In this document: one piece after another, positions 55-33,772 of the stretch | Layout: each line of letters starts with the position of its first letter | Numbering within the stretch: the first letter of the stretch is position 1 | Origin: a virus | Length of the DNA stretch: 64,000 nt | Virus record (IMG/VR): IMGVR_UViG_3300037264_003921 | Span: 1-64,000 of that record | Strand: one strand, 5' to 3' | Position numbers and translations under genes: made by a program | Notes under the pieces: generated by a model | What the model saw: the letters and a program-made list of their open reading frames with translations, nothing else | Told to the model about the DNA's origin: nothing | The model's database searches: none

Positions 55-130
55 TGGAGCGGCTAACGGGATGCGCGCCCGTGCTTAAACCATGGCAAGG
101 TTTCGTGCTACTAAGCTACACCATAGCCGC
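55..130 (-). tRNA. tRNA-Gly(GCC)
   Basis: GCGGCTA/TAGCCGC acceptor, AAACC-TTGCCAT-GGTTT anticodon arm, U73, encoded CCA. Confidence 0.9.
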
Positions 131-131
131 A

Positions 132-217
132 TGGCGGAAGATTATCGGATCGAACGATCAGCCTTTCAGCTGGCCTGGGGTTCAAGCCCAGTTAGGAACC
201 ATTTCCTACAACCTTCC
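132..217 (-). tRNA. tRNA-Ser(TGA), 8/4 cloverleaf (allo-tRNA/Sec-like)
   Basis: 8-bp acceptor GGAAGGTT/AATCTTCC, 4-bp T stem ATCG/CGAT, long D stem with 4-nt loop, variable arm, G73-CCA. Confidence 0.8.
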
Positions 218-645
218 TAATGTTTCATTAAACTAGTTCTGATTTCCATCAAAATTTTACCAAGCCAATTCTCTCCAACACCTCTACATTGACCCCAGAA
301 ACGGTCTCCCCATGTATTTCCTTCAATCAGCTCAGCATCACTTGTCAACAATAATTTCTTTTCCAAATCTGGATATTTTGTAAATTTTTGTTTAACTAAT
401 TCACGCATCACATCAATCTTTATGACATCCCAGTCATCACGTAATGTCACACCGCGCCCCAATCTCTTTGCCTTGCCTGGAGTTGCAGCCATTTTTATGA
501 CTTCGTGTTCTAATGGATCTAGAGTTTTAGCTGCTTGATATGCGTGTTCCGTAGAAGGAAAGATTACACCACTGTATTCAATTTCAACTGGGTAAAAATT
601 AGAAAGAAAATCATATTGCCCACGGAACAAATCAATTACAGCCAC
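217..645 (-). CDS. NADAR (YbiA-like) family protein
   Basis: FLSNFY, STEHAYQAAK, LIEGNTWGDRFWG and GENWLGKILMEIR motifs. Confidence 0.9.
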   Translation of the reverse strand: MAVIDLFRGQYDFLSNFYPVEIEYSGVIFPSTEHAYQAAKTLDPLEHEVIKMAATPGKAKRLGRGVTLRDDWDVIKIDVMRELVKQKFTKYPDLEKKLLLTSDAELIEGNTWGDRFWGQCRGVGENWLGKILMEIRTSLMKH

Positions 646-980
646 ATTCCCCTCTTAAAATTGCCATTGTTCCTAATCTTAAATACAGCAACGGAGTCAG
701 GGATTGATGCTATAAATTCATCCATATCCTCAAATAAGACTTTTATGTTATTGTCAACACAAATTTTACCCTTATCAGACCAGTCGTTTGCATAATGAAT
801 TTTTTCAAATTTCGAAATTCCAAATTTATCCAAATCTGATATGGTCTCTTCATGCCAACTAGGATCCCTTCCTGTTATTATATGAATTTCAAAAATGTCA
901 GATCTTATTAATGTGGAAAAAAATTCAGGATAGTCAGTGATGGTGCCATCTATATCGACACCGACCTTCATTTTGTTCAT
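636..980 (-). CDS. HAD-superfamily phosphatase/nucleotidase-like protein
   Basis: N-terminal DIDGT motif, ITGR, FEDMD. Confidence 0.7.
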   Translation of the reverse strand: MNKMKVGVDIDGTITDYPEFFSTLIRSDIFEIHIITGRDPSWHEETISDLDKFGISKFEKIHYANDWSDKGKICVDNNIKVLFEDMDEFIASIPDSVAVFKIRNNGNFKRGMWL

Positions 981-1612
981 AGTCCTATTATATCAATATG
1001 TGAAAACGCAGAATCAAGTCTATTTTCAAGTTTTATTACACTAAGTTTATGTTTTTCAACATCACCACCACCAACATCAATGATCTTATAGATCCCGTTC
1101 GATTGCACTACATTATCGGAATGCAAATCAAAATATCCTACCCCCTCATCACGAATCCATTGCATCCCATCTAACAATTGCTTAAATGCATTGTTCTTTG
1201 TCTTATCATAGTGTGCTTTTAATTGACTGACAATTTCGTCTGTGTCATTTGGTAATGCATCTAAAGTTCTCTTGAGGTCAGGGTCTGTCAATGGTTTCCC
1301 GCCATATTCTTGTAATATTACAAATAAATCTAGATCACCTATTTTGTAAACTCTATAGTATGCTGCAACATTTGGATGTCTTTTACTAATTAGACTGGCA
1401 GCTGCATTTGCTTCATTATTATCAATAGTCAATTTAAAAACAAATCCGCCTGATAATAACCAAGCATAACCCATATCCCCATGACCAATAAAATTGTTGA
1501 GATCTACATTGAATTCTCTTTCAATAGTTGACGCTATTTTATCAATGCTAGCCAATTTGTCATTGTCCAGCAAACTAACAAGATCCTCAAGTGCTGATCG
1601 TAGTGAAGACAT
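977..1612 (-). CDS. Protein-kinase-like (APH/PK fold) protein
   Basis: IGHGDMG glycine loop, VFK, DLHSDNV catalytic loop, IIDVG. Confidence 0.65.
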   Translation of the reverse strand: MSSLRSALEDLVSLLDNDKLASIDKIASTIEREFNVDLNNFIGHGDMGYAWLLSGGFVFKLTIDNNEANAAASLISKRHPNVAAYYRVYKIGDLDLFVILQEYGGKPLTDPDLKRTLDALPNDTDEIVSQLKAHYDKTKNNAFKQLLDGMQWIRDEGVGYFDLHSDNVVQSNGIYKIIDVGGGDVEKHKLSVIKLENRLDSAFSHIDIIGL

Positions 1613-1625
1613 ATATTATTTTTAT

Positions 1626-1709
1626 CGGAAGGTGGAGGTGTTGATCCCCATACTCTTCAGTACCATCTTGTTTCGAGCAAGCGATGAACTCCCGTTCATT
1701 TCACCTTCC
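1626..1709 (-). tRNA. tRNA-Ser(CGA), 8/4 cloverleaf (allo-tRNA/Sec-like)
   Basis: 8-bp acceptor GGAAGGTG/CACCTTCC, D stem ATGAAC-GGGA-GTTCAT, CTTG-CTCGAAA-CAAG, variable arm, 4-bp T stem, G73. Confidence 0.75.
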
Positions 1710-1805
1710 ATAATCAAATCCAAATTTAACCATTAAAAATATCAAAACACAAGCTATAATTATAATGTTCACATACAACATATCATTATTTGGTCGTTCT
1801 GACAT
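1701..1805 (-). CDS. Possible 34-aa single-TM peptide
   Basis: ATG at 1805: MSERPNNDMLYVNIIIIACVLIFLMVKFGFDYGR; fills the gap between tRNAs. Confidence 0.35.
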   Translation of the reverse strand: MSERPNNDMLYVNIIIIACVLIFLMVKFGFDYGR

Positions 1806-1821
1806 AATATTTTTTAAATAC

Positions 1822-1895
1822 TGGAGCTAACGAGCGGAATCAAACCGCTGCTTCATCATTACCAATGATGGGGTCTGTCACTAACCTACGCTAGC
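1822..1895 (-). tRNA. tRNA-Thr(GGT)
   Basis: GCTAGCG/CGTTAGC acceptor, CATCA-TTGGTAA-TGATG, CCA. Confidence 0.9.
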
Positions 1896-1898
1896 GAT

Positions 1899-1976
1899 TG
1901 GGGTGGCTGGCGGGACTCGCACCCGTTAATAGCCTGGGTCACAGCCAGGCGGCTCGACTCTTTGCCTTCAACCACC
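1899..1976 (-). tRNA. tRNA-His(GTG)
   Basis: G-1:C73, CCTGG-CTGTGAC-CCAGG, CCA. Confidence 0.9.
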
Positions 1977-1982
1977 GTATTT

Positions 1983-2329
1983 TGGTGGAGCCGGAGGCGT
2001 GTTTCAGCCTCGTCCTATGATTCATCCTCAGTGACATCTACGCATATAGGCTGCGCTAATTCTTGAAATCGTCTCAGGAGCAGCCAGCTTCAACGATTTT
2101 ATAGCTTCGAATTATGTCGACATCTATCATTCGAAGCACTAAAAGATGTCCATCCGATGTTTTAACGTCTCATGTAATTATCGGAGTCATTACAATCGAC
2201 GTAGCGTTAAGCCGCTAAAGCAAGAGGTGTCTTGCCGTTTGTGTTTTCGATCTCGTATTAACGCGGCCTCGAGATCAACCGCGATGCGCAGTCATCCGAT
2301 TTAGATCCATAGTCGAATCTATCGGCCCC
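1983..2329 (-). ncRNA. ssrA: tmRNA; tag (A)GKTPLALAA
   Basis: 5' GGGGCCGATAGATTCGAC, 3' CGGCTCCACCA with G3:U70; internal frame GGC AAG ACA CCT CTT GCT TTA GCG GCT TAA. Confidence 0.92.
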
Positions 2330-2338
2330 AAATATTAG

Positions 2339-2430
2339 TGGTGAGCGTAGAGGGATTCGAACCCACAAACCCGAAGGTGGCAATTTTACAGATTGTTGAA
2401 CTCTTTGGCCCAGCCCTGTTCAGTACGCTC
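2339..2430 (-). tRNA. tRNA-Tyr(GTA) with enlarged D arm
   Basis: GAGCGTA/TACGCTC acceptor, CAAT-CTGTAAA-ATTG, variable arm with TTCG loop, GGTTCGAATCC, CCA. Confidence 0.85.
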
Positions 2431-2770
2431 AATCAATTTGATAGTGAACTATAACATAAAATTCTGAATTATACGGAAGTGGCCCACTAACAGATACGTC
2501 GATCACTTTAATATTGTTGTCATCGATCCACTTATTGATTTGCTTCTCAATTTCTTTGATCGTGCCAACAAACATTTTAATATGGCTTTTTGGTTCTGGT
2601 TTTGATTCTGGTAGATTCGGTGACGATATGATGACTGGTGTAGGCTCAATAACAATACACGACTTGTCATCATTCAATGCGGTGATCACAAACATAGTGA
2701 TCACAACAATAGATGAAGGTATAAAGAAACCAAGAAAGCCACCAAACAGAAGTTTAAACATACATTTCAT
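2429..2770 (-). CDS. Membrane-anchored hypothetical protein
   Basis: 113-aa ORF, N-terminal hydrophobic helix, Pro-rich linker. Confidence 0.65.
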   Translation of the reverse strand: MKCMFKLLFGGFLGFFIPSSIVVITMFVITALNDDKSCIVIEPTPVIISSPNLPESKPEPKSHIKMFVGTIKEIEKQINKWIDDNNIKVIDVSVSGPLPYNSEFYVIVHYQID

Positions 2771-2780
2771 ATAATATTTT

Positions 2781-3083
2781 TGAGCACCTGCTGACCTCGC
2801 TTTTTGCTACAAATCGGCGTACTGGGAGCTTTAGTCGCGACATTAGCATCTGTTTATGGCTCCTCTCATCTTTCGATGGTACGGCTAACCCCACAAAGTC
2901 CGATAACGATCGTTATCGTGCGACACCGGCTAAGATATGCTCTTCTCTTACAGTGGTCATAACGGACATTATGCCCTGCCACTATAATAAGTCCCTACTG
3001 CTAATGGGAACGTTACGAAGAACTTTACTTGTACCCTTTTGGGCCGTTCTCCCATGGGCTTTCAGCGACAGACCAGGCACTCA
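2781..3083 (-). ncRNA. Unidentified ~300-nt structured RNA
   Basis: Ends pair (TGAGTGCCTG/CAGGTGCTCA), several internal hairpins, GC-rich, no credible ORF. Confidence 0.55.
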
Positions 3084-3087
3084 AATT

Positions 3088-3159
3088 TGGACCCCATCGG
3101 TTATGCTCCGATTTCTCAGGCTTGCAAGGCCAGCATTCTACTGATTGAACTAGGAGCCC
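3088..3159 (-). tRNA. tRNA-Ala(TGC)
   Basis: GGGCTCC/GGGGTCC with G3:U70, loop CTTGCAA. Confidence 0.85.
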
Positions 3160-3166
3160 TTAATAT

Positions 3167-3520
3167 TTAATTTGGTCTTTTTATAATCTTCTTATACATC
3201 CGTTTAGCATCTTGATCAATTTCTTCATTATATGAAGAAAAGTCACATAGGTGTCCAAAAACCAAATGACAATTATGGCCACCTTCACCACACAATGAGA
3301 TTAGATTAAGCGGATCTAGTTCAAGTTCAGGAAATAGATGAAATGGTTTTTTATGATGAACTTGAACATCATTGGTAGATCTACATACTACACATGCAGC
3401 ACAATGTTTGAGATGTTCACTACGAACCGCCCACCATTTCGAGTTTCTCTTTAGTTTAGCTTTCTTAATCGGTACATCTTGTGGCTTTCCGAATATAAGG
3501 CTCTTTATTTTATTAATCAT
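3167..3520 (-). CDS. HNH endonuclease
   Basis: CVVC...VHHKKP...NLISLC...CH; start moved to ATG 3520 because the longer ORF overlaps tRNA-Ala. Confidence 0.8.
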   Translation of the reverse strand: MINKIKSLIFGKPQDVPIKKAKLKRNSKWWAVRSEHLKHCAACVVCRSTNDVQVHHKKPFHLFPELELDPLNLISLCGEGGHNCHLVFGHLCDFSSYNEEIDQDAKRMYKKIIKRPN

Positions 3521-3536
3521 ATTGTAGTTTTGGTGG

Positions 3537-3610
3537 TGGTGGAGCCACGCGGACTCGAACCGCGATTTTCTGAATGCCATTCAGATGTCCTTCCATTGGA
3601 CGATGACCCC
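3537..3610 (-). tRNA. tRNA-Ala(GGC)
   Basis: G3:U70, TCTGA-ATGGCAT-TCAGA, GGTTCGAGTCC, CCA. Confidence 0.92.
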
Positions 3611-3612
3611 AT

Positions 3613-3712
3613 GAGTAGATTGGTTCACAACCCACTGCATACCTACTCGAAGAGTTGAATTCAATGTCAACATTTCCAACTTCATCGTTGGTGTGTTAGT
3701 TACACTATCTTC
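3613..3712 (-). ncRNA. Degenerate tRNA-like cloverleaf plus 3' hairpin
   Basis: GAAGA/TCTTC closing stem, GTGT/ACAC, CCAAC/GTTGG and GTTGA/TCAAC arms, then GAGTAG/CTACTC hairpin. Confidence 0.4.
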
Positions 3713-3721
3713 ATTCAATGT

Positions 3722-3797
3722 TGGTCAGGGATGAAAGACTTGCACTTTCCGTCTCGTGAATCCGAGTCACGCGGCCCGCTATCTGACCTTATCCCTG
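3722..3797 (-). tRNA. tRNA-Pro(CGG)
   Basis: CAGGGAT/ATCCCTG, CGTGA-CTCGGAT-TCACG, CCA. Confidence 0.88.
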
Positions 3798-3809
3798 ATG
3801 GTCAATTAT

Positions 3810-3886
3810 TGGTCAGGATGACAGGATTTGAACCTGCACTCTTCCGGATCCAAACCGGACGCTTTACCAAGTTAAGCTACATCCTG
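3810..3886 (-). tRNA. tRNA-Pro(TGG)
   Basis: CAGGATG/CATCCTG, TCCGG-TTTGGAT-CCGGA, CCA. Confidence 0.93.
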
Positions 3887-3897
3887 ATACGGCAATT

Positions 3898-3973
3898 TGG
3901 TGGACGGTCCCGGTTACGCTCCGGGCTCTCTGCCTCTTCAGGGCAGCGCTTTCACTAGGTTAGCTAACCGTCC
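3898..3973 (-). tRNA. tRNA-Phe(GAA)
   Basis: GGACGGT/ACCGTCC, CTGCC-CTGAAGA-GGCAG, CCA. Confidence 0.9.
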
Positions 3974-3979
3974 AAATAA

Positions 3980-4054
3980 TGGTAGCAGGTCCGGGAACTG
4001 CCCCCGGCTTGATGTGGTTATGAACCACCCTAAGACACTTGCCTCCCACCTGCA
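3980..4054 (-). tRNA. tRNA-Met(CAT), initiator-like 1:72 mismatch
   Basis: GTGG-TTCATAA-CCAC; T1xT72 mismatch; CCA. Confidence 0.8.
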
Positions 4055-4067
4055 TCGTGTATTTCAC

Positions 4068-4589
4068 TCATTGTTTCTTTTTAAATTCTATTTTATGCTT
4101 TTTGTCAAATCCCCATACTTCCATCGAGCCACATGTCCACTTGCCAGTTGGTATTTTTTTGCCATATTCAGCGTCAAGATCTTCCATGTACGCCAATGTA
4201 ACATGTGGTTTAAATTCAGGCCACGTATTCTCCCACTCCACTTTATGTTCATTAACGGATTTGACCAATTTATTACGCAATGAATGCAATCCAGATGATT
4301 TCACCTTTACAAATGCTACTTTTACACCGTCTTGGTTTTTTGGAAAATATCCAAGGCCATTAAGTTCACACTCAAACGGCTCAATATTCTCAGCCACTTC
4401 GTATGCAGATATGATGATTTTATCCTCCATGTCATAATCTTGGCTTCCAAGATATAGTGTCGTGATATGTGCTGGACTATCATCTTCCTTCAAAGTTGGA
4501 AATTTGCTATTAAGATCAGTTGGTAATTTAATAAAAATACCAACATGTTTAAGCTTCTTTTTTGCCTCGAAGAGTGATGATAATCTCAT
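4068..4589 (-). CDS. 2H phosphoesterase (LigT/Acb1-like)
   Basis: Two HxT motifs: PAHITTLYLG and FKPHVTLAY. Confidence 0.85.
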   Translation of the reverse strand: MRLSSLFEAKKKLKHVGIFIKLPTDLNSKFPTLKEDDSPAHITTLYLGSQDYDMEDKIIISAYEVAENIEPFECELNGLGYFPKNQDGVKVAFVKVKSSGLHSLRNKLVKSVNEHKVEWENTWPEFKPHVTLAYMEDLDAEYGKKIPTGKWTCGSMEVWGFDKKHKIEFKKKQ

Positions 4590-4592
4590 ATG

Positions 4593-4904
4593 TTACCACT
4601 GATAATTTTTAGATTTAGAATACATTTTAATATCGTCAATTATTTTCGCGTCATTTAAATCATCTACATACCATGCTTTTTGATATTCAAATGGTGCACG
4701 ATTTTGTCTGTCTGCAAAAATCACACCATTAGCATCAGGTAACTTAGCATCATTTAAGATAAATGCATCATCACCATGAAAGCGACCACGATATTTGATA
4801 ATTTGCAATGGATAACCGTCAACTTCAATCCAATCACCAATTTTAACTGTTCGTCCATCTATTATAAATGAATCAACAGCCTCAAAAAGTGTCATTAATT
4901 TCAT
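4593..4904 (-). CDS. Hypothetical protein
   Basis: Start moved to ATG 4904 (MKLMTLFEA) because the upstream part overlaps tRNA-Gln. Confidence 0.65.
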   Translation of the reverse strand: MKLMTLFEAVDSFIIDGRTVKIGDWIEVDGYPLQIIKYRGRFHGDDAFILNDAKLPDANGVIFADRQNRAPFEYQKAWYVDDLNDAKIIDDIKMYSKSKNYQW

Positions 4905-4954
4905 GCTGTATTTTTGTAAAAATCTAGAATTGATAATTATTAGATATTGAATTA

Positions 4955-5028
4955 TGGCTGGGATGCCTGGTAACGCTCCAGGTCCTATTATTTCAGAGAT
5001 AAGCGTGCAGCTTTTACACCACATCCCA
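4955..5028 (-). tRNA. tRNA-Gln(CTG)
   Basis: U1-A72, G73, TTAT-CTCTGAA-ATAA, CCA. Confidence 0.88.
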
Positions 5029-5034
5029 AAATAT

Positions 5035-5108
5035 TGGCTGGGGTGAAAGGTACTGCCCCTTTGCTTACTGGTTCAAAGCCAGTCGCGCTACTTTTACACC
5101 ACACCCCA
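5035..5108 (-). tRNA. tRNA-Gln(TTG)
   Basis: U1-A72, ACTGG-CTTTGAA-CCAGT, CCA. Confidence 0.9.
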
Positions 5109-5109
5109 A

Positions 5110-5188
5110 TGGCAGCCTCGACGGGACTCGCACCCGCTAATATTCCTTCGTGACAGGAAGGTGGCTCGACTACTTTGCCCTCGAAGCT
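5110..5188 (-). tRNA. tRNA-Asp(GTC)
   Basis: CCTTC-CTGTCAC-GAAGG, G73-CCA. Confidence 0.9.
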
Positions 5189-5195
5189 ATAAGTT

Positions 5196-5274
5196 TACCA
5201 CTGAAAGGATTTGCACCTTCATGCTCTCGCGTCCGCTTTTAAGACGGATGTGTCTTCTATTTCACCACAGTGGC
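5196..5274 (-). tRNA. tRNA-Leu(TAA)
   Basis: GCCACTG/CAGTGGT, TCCGT-CTTAAAA-GCGGA, short variable arm, A73. Confidence 0.85.
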
Positions 5275-5283
5275 ATTTAATAT

Positions 5284-5364
5284 TGGTGGGCCGGGAAGGA
5301 CTTAAACCTCCGTCCTCCGTAAGTCTCTACGACCCACGGTGCTCTTTCTCTGAGCTACCGACCC
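5284..5364 (-). tRNA. tRNA-like RNA, Lys-type body with extended anticodon arm (anticodon undetermined)
   Basis: GGGTCGGTAGCTCAG...CCGGCCCACCA; anticodon arm CCGTGGGTC-GTAGA-GACTTACGG. Confidence 0.7.
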
Positions 5365-5365
5365 A

Positions 5366-5436
5366 TGGCAGACTGCCTCGATGCCGCCTCGAGCTGCAGG
5401 CGTTTGGAGTGCCCACCGATCACTGGATCGCAGTCT
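5366..5436 (-). tRNA. tRNA-Trp(CCA), reduced D arm
   Basis: AGACTGC/GCAGTCT, loop CTCCAAA, G73-CCA. Confidence 0.75.
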
Positions 5437-5443
5437 AAAAATT

Positions 5444-5623
5444 TTACTTGCTCGACTTCCAATAACGCTTCATTGCACGGCTAAGCTTCCGACGATGACT
5501 TGCCGATTCTGGTGAATCCCAATACTGTGTTAACGAACAAGACCGACTTTCATTAGCTTCATGCTTCTGTTCCCAGAAACGCTTCATCCCTCTACTACGT
5601 GCGCGATTCGCCGAATTAGTCAT
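5444..5623 (-). CDS. 59-aa basic protein with repeated SxxMKRxW motif
   Basis: GGAGG SD; MTNSANRARSRGMKRFWEQK...RRKLSRAMKRYWKSSK; below the ORF-track cutoff. Confidence 0.65.
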   Translation of the reverse strand: MTNSANRARSRGMKRFWEQKHEANESRSCSLTQYWDSPESASHRRKLSRAMKRYWKSSK

Positions 5624-5667
5624 ATTACCTCCAAATCACATCTTTAAATACACTTGGATATGATTTT

Positions 5668-5741
5668 TGGAGCGGATGGTCGGTAATGCTCCGACGTTTC
5701 TTGGTTGGAAGCCAAGAGTCTTACTATTAGACGACACCCGC
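5668..5741 (-). tRNA. tRNA-Gly(TCC)
   Basis: GCGGGTG/CATCCGC, CTTGG-CTTCCAA-CCAAG, U73-CCA. Confidence 0.9.
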
Positions 5742-14630: not shown

Positions 14631-14704
14631 TGGTGCGCCCGACCAGGATCGAACTGGTTTATGAGATTTTAGAGATCCCCGGCCATCCAATAGCCCACGG
14701 GCGC
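14631..14704 (-). tRNA. Amber suppressor tRNA (anticodon CUA)
   Basis: GCGCCCG/CGGGCGC, GGGAT-CTCTAAA-ATCTC, CCAGTTCGATCCTGG, A73-CCA. Confidence 0.88.
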
Positions 14705-26350: not shown

Positions 26351-27049
26351 TCATTTGATGGCAGCCATTCTTATGTTAAGATACTGGTCTAGCACACCTA
26401 AGATTTCTGAATTAGAGAAATCATTCTTTGCAGAATTTATCCATTGACAGACAATCTGAACGTTGCCTTTGATGTGGCCTTTAGACGAATCAATACGATC
26501 TATTGAAGCTGCACAAAGATCGTTGAATTGGTGAGACATAGGCAATTTAGTCAATGCACATTTACCAGCTTGCTGATCCCACATGGTCATAACATAACTT
26601 ACATCTAAATCGAATTCACGTCGAATATCATCTTTTGGGTCATATTTATTTGGATTTCTAGAATGGGCTTTAATATGTAAAATTTGATCACGTAAGAATG
26701 ATTCAGGACCACGCATGATCGATTTGCGAACACGCTGCCAACGAACCTTTGGGTCTAGATCTTTGAAGTATTTTTCACGATATGCTTTCAACTCAACCTC
26801 GTGATCTTTACGATATTGTTTCTGTTGCGATTGATAACATGGTGTTTTACATATGTTCTTCTTACCAGCGAATGGATTTTCTTGGCTCTCAGCTTTCCCG
26901 CATGCAGTACAGATGCCAGTGCTGCGTTGTTGACGCTGAAAGATTATTTTATGGCATTCATCACACATCCATCGTTCTGGCTTGAATTCATGTGATATTT
27001 TAGAAGACCCACAACTGTCGCACTTATTTGGGCGTTTTAGGTTAGCCAT
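26351..27049 (-). CDS. HNH-type homing-endonuclease-like protein
   Basis: CxxC pairs; QAGKCALT...SIDRIDSSKGHIKGNVQIVC..IN.AK. Confidence 0.75.
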   Translation of the reverse strand: MANLKRPNKCDSCGSSKISHEFKPERWMCDECHKIIFQRQQRSTGICTACGKAESQENPFAGKKNICKTPCYQSQQKQYRKDHEVELKAYREKYFKDLDPKVRWQRVRKSIMRGPESFLRDQILHIKAHSRNPNKYDPKDDIRREFDLDVSYVMTMWDQQAGKCALTKLPMSHQFNDLCAASIDRIDSSKGHIKGNVQIVCQWINSAKNDFSNSEILGVLDQYLNIRMAAIK

Positions 27050-27194: not shown

Positions 27195-28709
27195 CTATAA
27201 GTTACTAACGTTTACAACTCCGTAGTAAAGGCCTCCATCTTCTATTAGTTTCTTACCATAGCGGGTCATGATACCCTTATTTGGCGTGAAACTATTAGGA
27301 TCCAAAACAGTTGGAGTCGAGAGTAGTGGGATGTATGGAGCATAGAAGTATCCACTATCCAATACGCTCGAGCCCTTAAAGCCCATTAGGATCTTACAAT
27401 TTGGGAATAGCGGATCCTTATAGAGCTTCAATTTGCCCTGTATTGTACCAGCAGATGTAATACCAATGTCAATACCATCCTGAGCTAGCGCGTCCGAGCC
27501 ACGGAAATCGTTCAGCTGCTCAAACTTCGAAGCGATATCAGCAGATGTTACCATCCAGTTTGCAGGACCACGGAGTGTGGTTCTGTGGATGATGTTTGCA
27601 ACTTCCAATACCTTGTACAGGAGGGCGATGTTGCGATCCGTAAAGTTAACCGAGGCACCAGCGCCTGTCGCAAAGTTATGCGTGGCACGAATGCTTGCAG
27701 CAACGATTAGATCGTTGATGATTTCGCGGTCAATTTCTGCTACCATCTCGTCTGCCATTAGATCTGTCAGGGTGCTCTCAGCATCGATGTTATGAACCGA
27801 CTTGAGATCCTGAGCAGCTTCTAACGACCACGAGGTCTTTAGCTTACGTGTTGCAGCTGCTACGCTATCCGAATCAATCGAAAGCGTAACCTCTGGCTGG
27901 AACGGGTTGTTTTCAAGATCGAACTCGTAATCTACGCGTGCAATCATGCCAGTTACCGATCCAGAACTCAACGTTACTTGTACTACACCTGTTGAGTGGC
28001 TAAACACCGTAGCGCCTGGTGAGGCCTCGTCAACTGTATAAACAGTTGGGCTTGCCACCAAGACGAGATCCGGGTCGCCGTTCGAATCGAAGCTAACCTG
28101 AATGATTGGTGTCGGGTCTTCGCAGCTATCCGCATCGGAAGCGTAAACGTTTACAACAACCGTGCCTGCTAGAACCGGCTTATGCAATAGTGTTGCTGTA
28201 ACGACGTCACCGCCGCCACTGATTACAGCGTCTTCATTCTTTACTACTTGTGAGCTGTAGTAAGGATCAAGTGCCCAACCGTTCTGACGACCGAACGCCT
28301 GAGCGGTATTCTGGCGCATGATCTGTGTTCCAGCTTGTGTCTGCCCCTTGTTAAGAGCATAACGATAGCGGATGTAGAAAATCAAGCTAGCTGGCTGGCT
28401 CATTGGTTGCACGCCAACTAGATTATCCGCGATTAGACGTGGATAGCTCTTGCGGATCAATGGGAGGGCGAAACGAGTGAAATCAGCGATATCACCAGTT
28501 GTCGTCGCATCTTCCAAGATCATCGAGCGGCCCTTTGGATCCCAGCAATTATACTGGTTTTCCATCATCGTAGCAAGAAGACCAAACTTTGATGGCTTTA
28601 CTTCCTTGCACTTTCTAAGAACTGGAGCCCATTTCTTCACGAGCTGATTCTTGCGAGATTCACGAAGAATCGACTCTTGACGGGCTTCTTCTACCATAAG
28701 CTTATCCAT
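27195..28709 (-). CDS. Major capsid protein (T4 gp23-like)
   Basis: LVGVQPMSQP, RKLKTSWSLEAAQDLKSVHNIDAE, EIDREII, YAPYIPL, GIMTRYG. Confidence 0.95.
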   Translation of the reverse strand: MDKLMVEEARQESILRESRKNQLVKKWAPVLRKCKEVKPSKFGLLATMMENQYNCWDPKGRSMILEDATTTGDIADFTRFALPLIRKSYPRLIADNLVGVQPMSQPASLIFYIRYRYALNKGQTQAGTQIMRQNTAQAFGRQNGWALDPYYSSQVVKNEDAVISGGGDVVTATLLHKPVLAGTVVVNVYASDADSCEDPTPIIQVSFDSNGDPDLVLVASPTVYTVDEASPGATVFSHSTGVVQVTLSSGSVTGMIARVDYEFDLENNPFQPEVTLSIDSDSVAAATRKLKTSWSLEAAQDLKSVHNIDAESTLTDLMADEMVAEIDREIINDLIVAASIRATHNFATGAGASVNFTDRNIALLYKVLEVANIIHRTTLRGPANWMVTSADIASKFEQLNDFRGSDALAQDGIDIGITSAGTIQGKLKLYKDPLFPNCKILMGFKGSSVLDSGYFYAPYIPLLSTPTVLDPNSFTPNKGIMTRYGKKLIEDGGLYYGVVNVSNL

Positions 28710-28725
28710 TTTTATCCTTTATATA

Positions 28726-29517
28726 TTATTCAAGTGTATCGGCGATTTTTTGTACCTCAGCAACCGGCTGCACAGCCGAGCTGAATGAACGTGTTTGCGA
28801 TTCAGTCATTGTTCTACGTGTCGACGCAGCCCCAGCTGCGGCTTTCCGACTTTCATCAAGACGAGCAGGTTCTGGTTTTTTGCTCTCTGCAACCTTCTCA
28901 TCCTTCTTGTCTGCAGCTTTGTCATCAACCTTTGGTGCTCCACCACATTTAGCACACTTGCCACTATTTGGGAATGGCAGCTTATGCTCTTGGCAGTACC
29001 CTTCACCAATTGTCACCACTTTTTCCTCAAGTTGGCGATTGCGCTGGAGCGTCTTAGCGGCGATGTCATTGGCGACATTCGCTTTCGACACAGCAGTATT
29101 ACGTTCCTCTTTTAGAGTCGCACACATCTTTTCGAGTCTCGCTATTTTTTTAGACGAGTCTTGAAGTTGCTGACTAGTCGCGCCGCTTTCTTTTAATTCA
29201 ACGCCTTCAAGAACGGCCTTAGCCTTCTTTAGACGTACGGCTGACTCAGATTCTTCAATCGCTCTTTGACGTGTAGCGGCTGCCTCAAAAGAGGCCGCTT
29301 TACTTTCCAAAAATGTTTTTACGCGTTTTGCTAATCTAATTTTTTCTTCATTGACTTCAGTAACACAGACTTTCTTCGCACGTTCGACTTTGCCTTGATA
29401 TTCTTGCTCATATTTAGACTTTAATGTTTCGGAATAAACTCGTAATTCTTCACATATGGCGTTCGCGAGTTCGTCTGAAGCACCAATGCCCTTCATGAGC
29501 TCTATTATCTTTTCCAT
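28726..29517 (-). CDS. Prohead scaffold (gp22-like)
   Basis: Coiled-coil protein directly upstream of the major capsid gene. Confidence 0.65.
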   Translation of the reverse strand: MEKIIELMKGIGASDELANAICEELRVYSETLKSKYEQEYQGKVERAKKVCVTEVNEEKIRLAKRVKTFLESKAASFEAAATRQRAIEESESAVRLKKAKAVLEGVELKESGATSQQLQDSSKKIARLEKMCATLKEERNTAVSKANVANDIAAKTLQRNRQLEEKVVTIGEGYCQEHKLPFPNSGKCAKCGGAPKVDDKAADKKDEKVAESKKPEPARLDESRKAAAGAASTRRTMTESQTRSFSSAVQPVAEVQKIADTLE

Positions 29518-29574
29518 AATTCTCCCTTAATTTTGCTTGAAAAATGTTATATAATAATTTTGCCGTTAATTCTT

Positions 29575-30129
29575 TCAATCCTCTATCGAATCTAACCATG
29601 CAGGCTTGCCAGATCCCTCTGACGAGCCATGTGGTTCTTCAGATGGCTTTTCATCTTTATCCTTATCGAGCTCATCTGACTCACCAGCATCAGGCGACAC
29701 AAGTGGCACAACAACCTTTGTCCAGCCATTTACTTCCACATGCCCATCGCCAATCTTATTCTCAACATTAGCTAAAGCTTCATCGCCAAACTCATCCTTA
29801 ATACAATCTTTCAAATCATTAACAGCTTCTTCTTTACTGGCATATGGACCATGAACTTCTGTCTTTTGTTCACCGTCTTCTTGACCATGGCACATGATCA
29901 CCCACTGCTCAGAAGCTGGCTCTTGTGGCATTCCGAGATTATCAGATTCAGAATCGTCAATTGATTCGTCATCCATATTTTCCAAAATGGCGAACATTGC
30001 CTCACTGACAGATTCGTCTAAGCCAAACTTGGCCTTCACTTGTTTCACTCAATTCTCATATTTTTCTTTGTCTTCTCTGCCAACTTCTGATGTGCAGATA
30101 GCCCAAGGGTTAACGGTTTTCTTATCCAT
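29575..30129 (-). CDS. Head-cluster protein with in-frame TGA at codon 27 (candidate selenoprotein)
   Basis: ATG 30129 overlaps the protease stop (TAATG); NPWAICTSEVGREDKEKYEN-TGA-VKQVK is in frame with ORF 29575..30048. Confidence 0.6.
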
Positions 30130-30806
30130 TATTTCTTCTCATTAAAGTAATCATGAATCTCTTTCAAGATGTCACGCTCTTTAGATTTAACTGACTCATT
30201 TGAATTTTTATTGAACCTATTGCGCGATTCCATAACACTCAAAAAGCTTCCTTGAACAGATGGCTCAGCAACAATATCAAACGTCACAAATGTGAATCCA
30301 GGCATTACTTTATAATATTCCTGGCCCTCAACAACTGTCGTTTCCATGTCACCAACACCACGAGAGCTTATTCCAATGCTGACGCCACTTTCAACAAGGT
30401 TCTTTAATATAGTGCCACATGGAGTCTTATCTAATACTTCTATTTCTCCAAGGACTTCATTATTCTCCATCCATAGCTTCGTAAGGATATGGCTGACACG
30501 ATCAAGATGGATCTTAGCATCTGCTGGATGGTCAAATTCGCCGAGAACACGTCTTGATTTAATATCCTCTTGTATTTCACTGACTGCGTGATCCAGGATG
30601 GCATGATCATAAATTCTGCCATTTGAATTTGGTTTTTCACCATATTGAAATCTACCGGCAAGACGCAATACGCTACGTTTTTGGCCATTTATGTCTTCAA
30701 CTACAACAGTCTCGCTCTTAACAACCTTTAAAGGAGACGACTCCTGTAAAAGTTGATATTGGCCTAGTTGGCCAGTACGAGCAACGACTGATCTAGATAT
30801 GATCAT
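30129..30806 (-). CDS. Prohead protease (gp21-like)
   Basis: NSNGRIY, LGEFDHP, VSH, TPCG.IL, GISSRGVG, FDIVAEPS. Confidence 0.92.
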   Translation of the reverse strand: MIISRSVVARTGQLGQYQLLQESSPLKVVKSETVVVEDINGQKRSVLRLAGRFQYGEKPNSNGRIYDHAILDHAVSEIQEDIKSRRVLGEFDHPADAKIHLDRVSHILTKLWMENNEVLGEIEVLDKTPCGTILKNLVESGVSIGISSRGVGDMETTVVEGQEYYKVMPGFTFVTFDIVAEPSVQGSFLSVMESRNRFNKNSNESVKSKERDILKEIHDYFNEKK

Positions 30807-30814
30807 TCAATCTC

Positions 30815-33772
30815 CTATTTGCACTCGCACGTATCTTTACCGCAGTCAGGGCAAGGGCATTTACAATAGTCGCTTGGTTTCTTACATTCTGGACAATGCT
30901 CTTCATTCACGACTTTCGTTTGTGGAGTTTTTGATTCAACTGGAGCCTTTTCAACATCTGTTTCTTCTGGTGCTTCTTCTGGCACTTCTTCTGCTCCAGT
31001 CGTTAAAACTTCTTCATCACCAAGCGGCATTCCACCGACAATCTCATCTACTGGAGATGGCAATTCAGGAACAGTAGGGACATCCATTGATCCCATATCC
31101 ATGCCCTCAGCTTTATCCATTGCAGCAATTACTCTAGAAATAACGTCATCAATCCGCTCATCTCTAGAGTAAACAACAGCTACATCCTCAACAAATGGAC
31201 TATCACTCTTTTTGCTTTCTTTGCTTTCTTTTACTTCACGTGGAGCAAGCGCAGCTTTCTTACGTCCATCTGCGTGCATACGTGGCCCCTTCTTTTGGTC
31301 CTCAGTTGCAGTTGGCTCACCTTCGGTTGGAGGTACTTCAGAGACAACCTTCTTCGTATCATCTGATTCAGCAAGACCTGACGTTTTGCTCTGAAAATCC
31401 TTGGCCATGTCTAAATCAGTTTTTTCTGCGCCTTTTGATGGCGGAACGCCACCCGCTCCCTTACCATCTGTCTTCTTGGCATCTCCATCATCCACACCGT
31501 TTTTGCCTTGCAATTCAGACATATCAAGGTCGTGTGGCTTCTTATAGCCGCCACCGCCAGTATGCTTTGCCTCTACCTTTAGTTCGCCTTCATCTAAAGC
31601 AGCTGCTATTTTATCTGTTATAGATTCACCAATTGCCTTGGTCTTACCTTGATTGTCTTTCGACATACCTGGGTCGCCATCTACGGCACCCTTATTCGAT
31701 GGAGTACCAGCCGCGTCAGCGCCACTTACTTTTTTCATGCCTTTATCAGAAAGGCCCTTGGTTTTACCTTGATTGTCTTTCGACATACCTGGGTCGCCCT
31801 CTACGGCACCACTATTCGACGGAGCACTGTCGCCACTCTTACCATCAGATGTCTTTACGCCTGATTTTACAACGCCCCCATTGTCTTGTAGTTCGCTCAT
31901 GCCAGAAGCGTCGCCACTATGCTTTACACCCTTTTCTGGCCCAGACAATCCACCAAGCTCTTCGCTTAATGGCGAATAGTCAGAATTTATCTTAACATTT
32001 TCTTTTAACTCTATTTTACCATCATATGGGTCATCTGGTAAATCAAGTACAACATCGTTACCAGAGTCTATGACAGTATCACGAATCCCCTCAAACTCTT
32101 CTCTTATCATATCAGCAGCGGCGGAGCCAATGCTGTGGCAACGGTCTATATATTTATTGATTTGATTGAAACAATCATCAAATCCGTCTTCCTTCAAGAA
32201 AATATGCCCGTCAGTCTTCCAAGAAAGTAGTTCTTCTTGTAGCTCAATAGCATTCATCTTCTCTATCGGTGTATAGTCCTCAACAATTGGCTTACCAGCC
32301 TTTTTAGATTCAGCAGCAGCTTTAGCCATCTCTGGCGCAACAGGGGCCTCAGCCGACGCCATAGCCATATCTGGTACTAATGCTTCTTCTTCTTCACCAC
32401 CTAGATCTGGCAATGGTACTGGTGTTTCATCCTGTTCCTCTTCTGGCTCAACAGCCGCTTCATCTTTGTCATCAACGCCAGGCATTCTATCAAAGCCATC
32501 AAGCGTTTGAATTCTATCAATGATTGTGTCCGAGATTCCAGCAAGTAACTCTTCTGTCTGATAAATGATATCAGTCGATGGTTCCTCAGTCTCAAGAGAG
32601 CCAACCATGTGTTCAATATCTTGTACTAACTGATCCTGTCCATCAATATGCTTCAACACGTTTTTAATGACTTTCAACGACACTAAATATGCTTTCGCAC
32701 GTGTTGAATCAATATCATTAGCTTCTGAGAACACTCCTTCAATAAAGACATTGTATGCAGAAGCAAAATCTTTTGATTCACCAAGGGCTTGTGCATTCGC
32801 GAGCATATCTGGGCTCTGCGCCTTTTGCGCTGTCTTCGTCCAGCAGTCAACGATTGTGTCTTTATTCACTTTTAAGTTAGTCTTATACATCAATGTAGCA
32901 ACATCTTCAATTAAGAATGAATTGAATTCAGACTGTGTTGCAAATGTTGACTCAACAAGTTTCGTCATTCCGGCTTTATTTAATAAACAGAATTCCTGCT
33001 CCTCGCGAAGGAATTTTGCTGCAACTTCAACAGCTTCAGAGACTTTATGTTCACAAACTAAACCGGCAATGTTCACTACAAATTTCTGGAATGTTGGTGA
33101 TTCGTATGCGCTTTCTGCAATCTCCCTCATACGTCTAGCCACTATTCTACGACGGGTTATCTCGTCGACTGGCAGCGTAAATGCGTCACCAGTTTCTGTA
33201 AAAACACCACGAACAACTTGGCCTTCCAATAATTCTACCTGATCTGCAACTGCATCTGAGAAGGCCTTGATTATCTTTGGTATTTTATCTTCTTCAATGA
33301 CATCAACTGTCGTCTTAATACGATGAACGTCACCGTCCCGTGTAGTAACTAATCCACTCTCAGGAATTACACGACTGCGGAAACGTTGTAATTCAATTTT
33401 ATTGAACACTTTTTCAGCAGATTTGAAATCAGATTCAGATATTGCTTCTACAAGATCTGTACAATTTTTATCAAATAAATCGGCTTTCTTTTCCTCAACA
33501 ACATTGACTCTTTTAATATTGTCAACAATGTAACGAGGACCATCTTTCTTGATATCGCCAACATAATATTCATTTGTCTTTGTGTCTTCGAATATCAAGC
33601 TTGCCGGATGCAAAGCCGTGAGCTTAAACGCACGCTTAGCCTCCTGACCTAGACGCTTTACAACATTTTCAAAGAAAACCACTTTGCTCTGCGCGGAATT
33701 ATTAATAGCACGCAGAAAATTCCTAGCATCCATATTGACAGACGCAGGAACCTTGTTCTGTTCAGTGCCCAT
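30815..33772 (-). CDS. Large acidic prohead-core-like protein
   Basis: 985 aa between portal and protease; low-complexity repeated C-terminal half. Confidence 0.7.
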   Translation of the reverse strand: MGTEQNKVPASVNMDARNFLRAINNSAQSKVVFFENVVKRLGQEAKRAFKLTALHPASLIFEDTKTNEYYVGDIKKDGPRYIVDNIKRVNVVEEKKADLFDKNCTDLVEAISESDFKSAEKVFNKIELQRFRSRVIPESGLVTTRDGDVHRIKTTVDVIEEDKIPKIIKAFSDAVADQVELLEGQVVRGVFTETGDAFTLPVDEITRRRIVARRMREIAESAYESPTFQKFVVNIAGLVCEHKVSEAVEVAAKFLREEQEFCLLNKAGMTKLVESTFATQSEFNSFLIEDVATLMYKTNLKVNKDTIVDCWTKTAQKAQSPDMLANAQALGESKDFASAYNVFIEGVFSEANDIDSTRAKAYLVSLKVIKNVLKHIDGQDQLVQDIEHMVGSLETEEPSTDIIYQTEELLAGISDTIIDRIQTLDGFDRMPGVDDKDEAAVEPEEEQDETPVPLPDLGGEEEEALVPDMAMASAEAPVAPEMAKAAAESKKAGKPIVEDYTPIEKMNAIELQEELLSWKTDGHIFLKEDGFDDCFNQINKYIDRCHSIGSAAADMIREEFEGIRDTVIDSGNDVVLDLPDDPYDGKIELKENVKINSDYSPLSEELGGLSGPEKGVKHSGDASGMSELQDNGGVVKSGVKTSDGKSGDSAPSNSGAVEGDPGMSKDNQGKTKGLSDKGMKKVSGADAAGTPSNKGAVDGDPGMSKDNQGKTKAIGESITDKIAAALDEGELKVEAKHTGGGGYKKPHDLDMSELQGKNGVDDGDAKKTDGKGAGGVPPSKGAEKTDLDMAKDFQSKTSGLAESDDTKKVVSEVPPTEGEPTATEDQKKGPRMHADGRKKAALAPREVKESKESKKSDSPFVEDVAVVYSRDERIDDVISRVIAAMDKAEGMDMGSMDVPTVPELPSPVDEIVGGMPLGDEEVLTTGAEEVPEEAPEETDVEKAPVESKTPQTKVVNEEHCPECKKPSDYCKCPCPDCGKDTCECK
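31636..31810. repeat. 55-bp intragenic direct repeat, 120-bp period
   Basis: 31636-31690 vs 31756-31810, 2 mismatches; encodes GAV(E/D)GDPGMSKDNQGKTK. Confidence 0.8.

What the first reader, a model, noticed from the sequence alone, without database searches (positions are those of the whole stretch)
29575..30129. Candidate phage selenoprotein in the head gene cluster (in-frame UGA + SECIS-like hairpin)
Seen: ATG 30129 is coupled to the protease stop (TAATG) and reads MDKKTVNPWAICTSEVGREDKEKYEN-TGA-VKQVKAKFG, continuing in frame for 157 aa. The TGA (30049-30051) is followed by a stem AGGCCA/TGGCTT whose apical loop AGTT starts 19 nt after the UGA and has G at loop position 2. Established: bacterial SECIS elements are hairpins just 3' of the UGA with a G early in the apical loop. 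Inference, from unverified recollection: related large-phage proteins read NPWAIC...K(Y/F)ExCV, which would put UGA at a conserved Cys and give a Cys12/Sec27 pair. A phage gene using the host Sec machinery would be very unusual.
Basis: partly seen in the sequence, partly recalled or inferred. Interest (0 to 1): 0.78.

Follow-up and report, generated by a model that had tools for sequence, protein, structure and literature searches.

The report
Candidate selenocysteine codon in phage head gene
A head-assembly gene of a giant uncultured phage has an internal UGA "stop" exactly where related phage proteins carry an invariant cysteine, followed by a conserved RNA hairpin, so it most likely encodes selenocysteine, which the papers I could search report for no virus of bacteria.

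Summary
The minus-strand ORF 30129..29575 starts at a TAATG overlap with the S77 prohead protease gene. It has an in-frame TGA at 30051..30049, codon 27.

Evidence for recoding:
- This codon is the second cysteine of a C-x14-C phage module. In 119 of 119 other viral contigs found by a motif scan it is TGT or TGC.
- A metagenome relative, L001, is about 50% identical, with a protease 64% identical. It has TGA at the same codon, and synonymous changes occur on both sides.
- Both TGA forms have a hairpin with a 4-nt loop, AGU(U/C), 19 nt after the UGA. One pair shows a compensatory change. The hairpin fits the published bacterial SECIS constraints.
- None of 117 Cys forms has such a hairpin.

My best reading is SelB/SECIS-type recoding to selenocysteine, or to cysteine by a SelB-like route, at about 0.68.

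The main rival is a real stop followed by re-initiation at the adjacent GTG. The host is unknown. The 125-kb contig is about 34% of the genome and carries no selA, selB, selD or tRNA-Sec. No read or protein evidence shows translation across the UGA.

This scan has noted phage selenoprotein candidates before, on other DNA. This protein family is not among them.

The parts
29575..30129 (-). Full read-through ORF: 184 codons plus a terminal TGA. Gene callers report only the 157-aa part that starts at GTG 30048.
   Evidence: P0002, the database entry for this locus, starts at the V after the TGA.
30049..30051 (-). In-frame TGA at codon 27, the candidate Sec codon. It aligns with the invariant second Cys of the C-x14-C module.
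   Evidence: TGT 77, TGC 42 in 119 other viral loci; TGA only in the window and L001.
30016..30039 (-). SECIS-like hairpin. The core stem is 30035..30030 paired with 30025..30020, and the loop AGUU is 30029..30026, 19 nt after the UGA. Two outer pairs lie beyond a 2x2 internal loop.
   Evidence: In L001 the same position holds a 10-bp stem with loop AGUC (-13.2 kcal/mol, z -3.84).
30028..30111 (-). N-terminal C-x14-C module (residues 7-34, starting NPWAIC), which includes Cys12 at 30096..30094. It is predicted as a helix-loop-helix in the Cys homologue P0017.
   Evidence: AF2 model: helices 15-22 and 28-42, pLDDT about 71-80.
30013..30021 (-). L-D-E (residues 37-39), a possible prohead-protease cleavage site just after the module. 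This is an inference.
   Evidence: [LIM]xE lies within 16 residues after the second Cys in 49 of 59 continuing forms, against a shuffle expectation of 0.23. The T4 gp21 (L/I)xE consensus is recalled and comes from no call.
29692..29907 (-). Conserved C-terminal domain, beta-beta-alpha-alpha-beta-beta, shared with P0003-P0006, P0017 and P0018.
   Evidence: Alignments. AF2 pLDDT 84-90. No PDB fold match at E <= 0.001.
30129..30806 (-). Context: the prohead core serine protease (S77, gp21-like). Its stop overlaps the start of the target gene.
   Evidence: The same gene order is found in L001.
27195..29517 (-). Context: a scaffold-like gene (29517..28726) and the gp23-type major capsid protein gene (28709..27195), directly downstream.
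   Evidence: PF07068, E 4e-80. The scaffold assignment rests on position and composition only.

Best explanation
The TGA at 30051..30049 is not a terminator. It is a recoded codon, read by a SelB/SECIS-type mechanism as selenocysteine, or less likely as cysteine delivered by a SelB-like factor.

Proposed mechanism:
- Ribosomes start at ATG 30129, coupled to the end of the prohead protease gene.
- They reach the UGA while the hairpin 13-36 nt downstream presents a 4-nt loop, AGUU, to the host elongation factor.
- They then continue into the 157-codon remainder.

The product is a 184-residue head-module protein. Its N-terminal C-x14-C helical hairpin becomes C-x14-U. I infer that the module is a detachable assembly or targeting element, cut off at the following L-D-E by the neighbouring protease.

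Shown:
- the TGA itself;
- its alignment to an invariant Cys;
- its conservation in a second, diverged phage;
- coding-type divergence on both sides;
- a hairpin that is conserved and specific to the TGA forms.

Inferred:
- that SelB reads it;
- that selenium is inserted;
- the role of the module.
For: 1. Cys/UGA pairing. The motif scan of viral contigs gave 119 of 119 loci with TGT (77) or TGC (42) at this codon. The full-length Cys homologues P0004 (57% identity) and P0017, and the distant P0019 and P0020, share the same N-module plus C-domain architecture.
2. A second, independent TGA. L001 is from another metagenome. It sits behind an S77 protease that is 64% identical and has TGA at the same codon.
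3. Both flanks evolve as one reading frame. Upstream 21 codons: 8 identical, 6 synonymous, 7 non-synonymous. Downstream 21 codons: 8, 7, 6.
4. Hairpin. The window has a 6-bp stem plus 2 outer pairs, loop AGUU, spacing 19 nt, -8.8 kcal/mol. L001 has a 10-bp stem, loop AGUC, spacing 19 nt, -13.2 kcal/mol, z -3.84. The loop-closing pair changes from A-U to C-G through two non-synonymous changes, and two further pairs switch between G-C and G-U.
5. Both hairpins meet the bSECIS constraints: loop 3-9 nt, stem 4-16 bp, G in the first two loop positions, spacing 16-37 nt, MFE <= -7.5 (PMC13188914, Fig. 2 legend).
6. Matched control. Among 117 Cys forms, the mean 42-nt MFE is -2.42 (sd 2.25). None reaches -8.8, and none has a SECIS-geometry hairpin at <= -5 kcal/mol.
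7. There is no genome-wide TGA reassignment. Only 6 TGAs in the contig pass a crude in-frame-plus-hairpin filter, and the other 5 lie in frames that do not look coding.
8. Three further family members were gene-called to start 1, 3 and 8 codons after the Cys position: P0003, P0005 and P0018. That is what an in-frame stop there would produce. Their DNA could not be fetched.
9. A second assembly of the source run keeps TGA.
Against: - Only two TGA forms are verified at DNA level. They share ancestry, so TGA plus hairpin may count as one evolutionary event.
- GTG, a possible start codon, follows the TGA in both. In Cys forms GTG is used for that valine or isoleucine in only 13 of 119 loci.
- The window hairpin alone is weak: z -1.58, and 2.2-8.3% of random TGAs do as well.
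- The 125-kb contig has no tRNA-Sec (best RF01852 score 18.6 bits against a cut-off of 47) and no selA, selB or selD (ARAGORN). The contig is about 34% of the genome by CheckV, so absence from the phage is not shown. The host is unknown.
- No Rfam SECIS family matches.
- No TGA form was found in viral contigs or genome contigs by a directed pattern.
- From my own knowledge, known bacterial selenoproteins are mostly redox enzymes and not virion-assembly proteins.
- The closest relatives by protease, L123 (78%) and L124 (73%), carry Cys forms of the module.
Confidence: 0.68

Rival explanations
1. This is a split gene. The TGA is a true stop. A 26-aa micro-ORF in the window, or a 212-aa ORF in L001, ends there. 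A separate 157-aa protein is made by termination-reinitiation at the adjacent GTG 30048.
For: - TGA-GTG adjacency occurs in both DNA-verified cases.
- GTG is a minority codon at that site in Cys forms, 13 of 119.
- Gene callers in the public collections annotate it this way: P0002, P0003 and P0006.
- TGA is an ordinary stop in this genome, including at this gene's own end.
- No Sec machinery is on the contig.
Against: - It would cut a roughly 30-residue module in the middle and remove a Cys that is invariant in 119 of 119 other loci.
- Both halves still keep the module consensus and evolve under purifying selection in both lineages.
- It does not explain a hairpin conserved at the same distance, with compensatory change, and absent from 117 Cys forms.
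- P0005 and P0018 start 3 and 8 codons further on, so an adjacent start codon is not a constant feature.
- No conserved Shine-Dalgarno precedes the GTG. SD use is low genome-wide, so this point is weak.
Confidence: 0.18
2. The UGA is read through without selenium. A suppressor tRNA (a phage opal suppressor in the unsequenced two-thirds of the genome, or a host one) or a near-cognate tRNA reads it, and the hairpin merely stimulates read-through.
For: - The same phage carries a tRNA with a CUA anticodon at 14631-14704 (ARAGORN).
- The tRNA cluster abuts the contig end, and the contig is about 34% complete.
- selC*-type tRNA-Cys(UCA) with its own selB* is described in Desulfobacterales and Syntrophobacterales (PMC5389517, passages read). 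The runs that hold this DNA are sediment metagenomes.
Against: - No UCA-anticodon tRNA is found at normal ARAGORN thresholds in 125 kb.
- A general opal suppressor would also read the many ordinary TGA stops.
- The hairpin geometry and its loop G-U match the SelB-type signal.
- An invariant Cys site would not tolerate Trp.
- The selC*/selB* route is mechanistically a sub-case of the main explanation.
Confidence: 0.1
3. It is an artefact or decay: an assembly or sequencing error, or a recently inactivated pseudogene.
For: The TGA differs from TGT or TGC by a single base. Only contig-level read evidence was available.
Against: - The same TGA is found in an independent metagenome contig at about 50% protein identity.
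- A Logan contig of the source run is identical at word depth 16.
- Both flanks are under purifying selection.
- A TGA-specific hairpin is present.
Confidence: 0.02

Closest known systems
Bacterial selenoprotein genes with an in-ORF SECIS read by SelB (prototype E. coli fdhF; consensus bSECIS model of Zhang and Gladyshev as summarised in PMC13188914)
   Same: An in-frame UGA aligns to Cys in homologues. A hairpin lies inside the ORF just 3' of the UGA. Its small apical loop has G then U at positions 2-3, 19 nt from the UGA. It meets all four published model constraints.
   Different: The gene belongs to a phage and lies in the head-assembly cassette. Sec would sit in a C-x14-U helical hairpin, not in a recognisable redox fold. 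No cognate selA, selB, selC or selD genes were identified, and the host is unknown. No Rfam SECIS family matches. The fdhF loop details are recalled and were not checked here.
Poxvirus selenoproteins (molluscum contagiosum GPx1-like, fowlpox GPx4-like), the only viral selenoproteins named in the recoding review PMC8310308 (passages read)
   Same: A virus-borne gene whose UGA is decoded as Sec by the host machinery. In fowlpox the SECIS lies in the coding region.
   Different: Those are captured cellular glutathione peroxidases of eukaryotic viruses, with eukaryotic SECIS elements. Here the protein is phage-specific, has no cellular homologue that I found, and carries a bacterial-type signal.
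selC* tRNA-Cys(UCA) / selB* UGA-to-Cys recoding in Desulfobacterales and Syntrophobacterales (PMC5389517)
   Same: It would read the same UGA-plus-hairpin signal and restore the ancestral Cys. The bacteria are sediment dwellers, and the runs that hold this phage are sediment metagenomes.
   Different: The function of that system is itself only proposed in the paper. Nothing here links the phage to those hosts.
Phage stop-codon read-through and suppressor-tRNA recoding (Q-beta A1 read-through protein; TAG- or TGA-recoded phages; recalled)
   Same: A phage late or structural gene needs a stop codon to be read as sense.
   Different: Only one TGA in the contig behaves this way. It sits at an invariant Cys, and it has a SECIS-type hairpin. 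It is neither a code change nor an extension beyond a normal gene end.
T4 prohead internal or core proteins with a protease-cleaved capsid-targeting sequence (recalled)
   Same: The gene sits between a gp21-type protease gene and the scaffold and gp23 genes. A short conserved terminal module is separated from the rest by an (L/I/M)xE site.
   Different: The module here is a roughly 30-residue two-Cys helical hairpin found at N-termini, C-termini or internally in many unrelated phage proteins. No PHROG or Pfam family covers it. Its cleavage and targeting are untested.

Membership tests
Bacterial-type (SelB/SECIS) selenoprotein gene | An in-frame UGA with protein-coding conservation on both sides, in one frame | tested here: met
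   Window against L001: upstream 21 codons are 8 identical, 6 synonymous, 7 non-synonymous; downstream 21 codons are 8, 7, 6.
Bacterial-type (SelB/SECIS) selenoprotein gene | Cys-containing homologues aligned at the UGA | tested here: met
   119 of 119 viral loci have TGT or TGC. P0004, P0017, P0019 and P0020 are full-architecture Cys forms.
Bacterial-type (SelB/SECIS) selenoprotein gene | UGA present in at least two independent sequences (the criterion used in the GOS selenoproteome paper, PMC2398784, passage read) | tested here: met
   The window and L001. Three more are suspected only from where their gene calls start.
Bacterial-type (SelB/SECIS) selenoprotein gene | bSECIS hairpin: loop 3-9 nt, stem 4-16 bp, G in the first two loop positions, 16-37 nt from the UGA, MFE <= -7.5 kcal/mol (PMC13188914) | tested here: met
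   Window: 4-nt loop AGUU, 6-bp stem, 19 nt, -8.8 kcal/mol. L001: 4-nt loop AGUC, 10-bp stem, 19 nt, -13.2 kcal/mol. bSECISearch itself was not available; I applied the constraints with my own script.
Bacterial-type (SelB/SECIS) selenoprotein gene | Sec machinery (selA, selB, selC, selD) available in the host or the phage | not testable with these tools
   The host is unknown. The contig has none but is about 34% complete.
Bacterial-type (SelB/SECIS) selenoprotein gene | Selenium actually incorporated at the UGA | not testable with these tools
   This needs 75Se labelling or mass spectrometry.
Rfam bacterial SECIS families | A covariance-model match around the UGA | tested here: not met
   No SECIS family appears at E <= 10 in window 29900-30150 or L001 3420-3670. 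From my knowledge these models are specific to particular selenoprotein families, so this weighs little.
Phage with a reassigned TGA (code 4 or 25 type) | Many in-frame TGAs across genes, with TGA not used as a terminator | tested here: not met
   TGA ends 39 of 149 minus-strand ORFs of at least 80 codons, including this gene. Same-frame junctions show no excess of TGA.
Prohead core or cargo protein with a protease-cleaved targeting module (T4-like) | The gene lies in the head cassette next to a gp21-type protease, with an (L/I)xE site between module and body | tested here: met
   Synteny. L-D-E follows the module in the window and in L001. The enrichment is 49 of 59 and 33 of 48 against shuffle expectations of 0.23 and 0.28. 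The cleavage consensus is recalled.
Prohead core or cargo protein with a protease-cleaved targeting module (T4-like) | The protein is present in proheads and is cleaved during maturation | not testable with these tools
   No virion proteome exists for this uncultured phage.

The most novel reading that the evidence does not exclude
The two-Cys module is a widespread, so far unnamed, protease-detachable capsid-assembly or targeting tag of tailed phages. In one lineage of sediment jumbo phages its second Cys has become selenocysteine. Synthesis of a head protein, and so virion assembly, would then depend on the host's SelB system and selenium supply. A failed recoding would release a short decoy peptide instead of the full protein. 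That would be a natural selenium- or translation-state checkpoint in a virus of bacteria, and the first structural, non-enzymatic viral selenoprotein.
Probability: 0.15. Interest if true: 0.88.

Novelty: new variant of a known kind. Interest (0 to 1): 0.74.

Why it matters
Sec decoding by UGA plus SECIS is well known in bacteria. In the papers I could search I found no selenoprotein reported for a bacteriophage:
- searches;
- the 2026 prokaryotic selenoproteome review has 0 occurrences of phage, virus or viral in its main text;
- the viral recoding review names only two poxvirus cases in the passages I read.

If the reading is right, four things follow.
1. Phages can exploit, and depend on, the host's 21st-amino-acid machinery for a virion-assembly protein. 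That gives a new handle on host range, because only Sec-competent hosts would serve.
2. Gene callers systematically truncate such genes. All database entries for this family start after the UGA.
3. A very common but unannotated two-Cys phage module gains a functional clue, since Sec replaces only chemically active cysteines.
4. The short phage SECIS would be a compact natural element for testing SelB specificity.

Tried and rejected
**Searches that found nothing**
- INPHARED phage records: no DNA or protein match.
- The A1/A2 family: no relatives in viral contigs or genome contigs.
- A directed pattern for the TGA form: 0 hits in viral contigs and 0 in genome contigs.
- Pfam and PHROGs: nothing for the target or for 10 other module-bearing proteins.
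- PDB sequence search: only chance-level rows, E >= 1.5.
- Foldseek against the PDB with the AF2 model: no match at E <= 0.001.
- ESM Atlas with the Cys homologue P0004: only unnamed viral clusters at 0.79 and 0.76.
- Rfam at a permissive threshold around both UGAs: no SECIS family.
- The last protein search, with L001's 212-aa upstream ORF: only the ORF itself.

**Genome-wide recoding, rejected.** Making TGA sense gives no special gain, and same-frame junctions show no TGA excess.

**Shine-Dalgarno analysis, uninformative.** Only 24 of 82 long ORFs have a 4-mer SD core.

**Tree of the C-domain, unresolved.** It has 9 rows. The core clade is a polytomy with the Cys forms P0004 and P0017 among the TGA and suspected-TGA forms. 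The number and direction of Cys/Sec switches cannot be told.

**RNA run X2.** This is a sediment metatranscriptome from another study. It holds identical contigs for 29619-29833 and 30076-30327 but none across the TGA. This is neither evidence for nor against read-through, and DNA carry-over cannot be excluded.

**Host.** The genome search draws no relatives for a virus record, so host Sec capacity could not be examined.

**Supplements.** Supplementary files of papers were closed. Supplementary tables of PMC5389517 and of the selenoproteome papers might list phage-borne cases that I could not see.
Full report
**What is there**

On the minus strand the window carries a T4-type head cassette. 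In order it holds:
- a 985-aa ORF (33772..30815);
- an S77 prohead core protease (30806..30129; PF03420, E 5e-20; phrog_207, E 9e-49);
- the target;
- a scaffold-like gene (29517..28726);
- a gp23-type major capsid protein (28709..27195; PF07068, E 4e-80).

The protease stop TAA overlaps an ATG at 30129. From there the frame reads 26 codons, then TGA (30051..30049), then 157 more codons to a terminal TGA at 29577..29575.

**The TGA sits at an invariant cysteine**

Protein searches found relatives with the same two-part architecture and Cys at the aligned site. These are P0004 (57% identical), P0017, and the distant P0019 and P0020. The N-terminal motif NPWA(I/V)CT..(V/T)GR..K.KYE.C(V/I) also appears in many otherwise unrelated proteins, including a ClpP-domain fusion.

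All 119 have TGT (77) or TGC (42) at the second Cys.

**A second, independent TGA**

The single metagenome scan returned L001. There an S77 protease, 64% identical to the window's, is followed by an ORF. After a 186-residue extra N-terminal part, that ORF reads the same motif, then TGA at the same codon, then GTG and a homologous remainder about 50% identical to the window's.

I compared the window with L001 over 21 codons on each side of the TGA.

| Side | Identical codons | Synonymous changes | Non-synonymous changes |
|---|---|---|---|
| Upstream | 8 | 6 | 7 |
| Downstream | 8 | 7 | 6 |

Both sides are therefore kept as protein in one frame.

Three further family members in the protein collections were gene-called to begin 1, 3 and 8 codons after the Cys position: P0003, P0005 and P0018. 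An in-frame stop there would produce exactly that.

**The hairpin**

| | Window | L001 |
|---|---|---|
| Stem | 6 bp, plus two outer pairs across a 2x2 internal loop | 10 bp |
| Loop | AGUU | AGUC |
| MFE of the 42 nt from the UGA | -8.8 kcal/mol | -13.2 kcal/mol |
| z-score | -1.58 | -3.84 |
| Loop distance from the UGA | 19 nt | 19 nt |

Between the two sequences the loop-closing pair changes from A-U to C-G, through two non-synonymous codon changes. Two other pairs switch between G-C and G-U.

Both hairpins satisfy the four constraints of the consensus bacterial SECIS model, as given in the Fig. 2 legend of PMC13188914 (passages read). Those constraints are a loop of 3-9 nt, a stem of 4-16 bp, G in the first two loop positions (commonly followed by G or U), spacing of 16-37 nt, and MFE <= -7.5 kcal/mol.

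**Controls**

This model is permissive. Of 5378 TGA triplets on both strands of the contig, 2.2% have a contiguous-stem hairpin of that geometry at least as stable as the window's. In addition, 8.3% reach a 42-nt MFE of -8.8 or lower. The window hairpin alone therefore proves little.

The matched control is more telling. I folded the 42 nt after the Cys codon in 117 Cys-form loci; two of the 119 were dropped for having fewer than 60 nt downstream.
- The mean MFE is -2.42 (sd 2.25).
- None reaches -8.8, and 4 reach -7.5.
- None has a SECIS-geometry hairpin at <= -5 kcal/mol.

The hairpin thus goes with the TGA and not with the protein family.

A crude genome-wide filter asked for an in-frame TGA with at least 15 open codons before it, at least 40 after it, and a hairpin. 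Six sites passed. The other five lie in frames that do not look coding.

**Not a code change, not an error**

- TGA is a common terminator here, ending 39 of 149 minus-strand ORFs of at least 80 codons, this gene included. Same-frame gene junctions show no TGA excess.
- A Logan assembly of the probable source run (X1, a sediment metagenome) covers 29400-30900 with 0 differences at word depth 16.
- A sediment metatranscriptome from another study (X2) holds identical contigs on both sides of the TGA but none across it.

**Machinery and host**

G000 is an IMG/VR virus record of 125,263 bp, with a CheckV completeness of 34. This implies a jumbo phage of roughly 370 kb.

The contig has no tRNA-Sec: the best RF01852 score is 18.6 bits against a cut-off of 47, and ARAGORN finds no UCA anticodon at normal thresholds. 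It also has no selA, selB or selD. Its tRNA cluster (55-5741) abuts the contig end, so the missing two-thirds could hold such genes.

The host could not be approached. This is the largest gap in the case.

**What the protein may do (inference)**

AlphaFold2 on the Cys homologue P0017, with 13 aligned sequences, predicts these parts:
- a helix-loop-helix holding the two Cys (helices 15-22 and 28-42, pLDDT about 71-80);
- a disordered acidic linker;
- a confident beta-beta-alpha-alpha-beta-beta C-domain (pLDDT 84-90).

No PDB fold matches at E <= 0.001.

Across the 110 viral loci with complete 3' ends, the module is the C-terminal tail in 51 and is followed by 75-335 residues in 59. An (L/I/M)xE triplet lies between module and body far more often than shuffling predicts:
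- 49 of 59 continuing forms have one within 16 residues after the second Cys, against an expectation of 0.23;
- 33 of 48 C-terminal forms have one within the 10 residues before NPW, against an expectation of 0.28.

Both the window and L001 have L-D-E there.

(L/I)xE is the cleavage consensus of the T4 gp21 protease, which I recall and did not check. The gene also directly follows a gp21-type protease gene. I therefore read the module as a detachable assembly or targeting tag. A Sec in place of one of its two Cys argues that these cysteines are chemically active, through redox or metal chemistry, and not merely structural.

**Rivals**

1. *Termination at the TGA with re-initiation at the adjacent GTG.* GTG follows the TGA in both verified cases, yet it is used in only 13 of 119 Cys forms. 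Against this rival, it would split a 30-residue module at its invariant Cys, although both halves stay conserved. It leaves the TGA-specific hairpin unexplained, and P0005 and P0018 do not start at that codon. I give it 0.18.
It gains some plausibility from the selC*/selB* Cys-recoding system of sediment delta-proteobacteria (PMC5389517). I give it 0.10. The selC*/selB* version is mechanistically close to the main reading.
3. *Error or pseudogene.* I give it 0.02.

**Comparison with what is known, and novelty**

The mechanism would be the ordinary bacterial SelB/SECIS one. What is unusual is the bearer, a phage head-assembly gene with no cellular homologue.

My literature searches found no phage selenoprotein. 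The 2026 prokaryotic selenoproteome review never mentions phage or virus in its main text. The viral recoding review names only the two poxvirus glutathione peroxidases in the passages I read. Supplements were closed.

Earlier AI notes of this scan report phage selenoprotein candidates on other genomes, and one phage with its own selA, selC and selD. They are unchecked leads and not independent support. A sequence look-up found no look-alike of this protein among them, so this would be a further family.

**Verdict**

The standard comparative signature of a bacterial selenoprotein gene is present. It rests on two DNA-verified sequences, an unknown host and no expression evidence.

Noticed in passing
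window 1983-2329 (- strand): A phage-borne tmRNA gene (Rfam RF00023, 99.3 bits against a cut-off of 47, full length) sits inside the tRNA cluster. ARAGORN at default settings did not call it.
   Followed up: no
window 55-5741 (- strand): A dense tRNA cluster abuts the contig start. ARAGORN finds 9 at default settings, and Rfam adds 5038-5108, 5287-5364 and 1902-1975. The cluster may continue beyond the contig end, which matters for the search for a tRNA-Sec.
   Followed up: partly
window 14631-14704 (- strand): ARAGORN calls a tRNA with a CUA (amber-reading) anticodon, but it does not reach the Rfam tRNA gathering score.
   Followed up: no
It occurs N-terminally, C-terminally or internally. 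It is covered by no Pfam or PHROG family in the proteins tested, and (L/I/M)xE sites flank it on the cargo side.
   Followed up: partly
window 30815-33772 (- strand): The 985-aa ORF upstream of the protease has no Pfam or PHROG match. It has long acidic and Gly-rich repeats and a C-terminal cluster of CxxC-type cysteines. By position it could be a portal-associated or core protein.
   Followed up: no
window 26351-27049 (- strand): An HNH or endonuclease VII-like gene (phrog_3322, E 6e-20) lies directly downstream of the major capsid protein gene. It is likely a homing endonuclease.
   Followed up: no
L125 3670-4500: In a relative whose protease is 57% identical, no module-bearing gene follows the protease. 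A stretch without a clear forward ORF separates the protease from the scaffold gene.
   Followed up: no
L001 2875-3510: In L001 the UGA-containing protein has an extra 186-residue N-terminal domain. It has no homologue other than itself in 5.8 billion proteins.
   Followed up: partly
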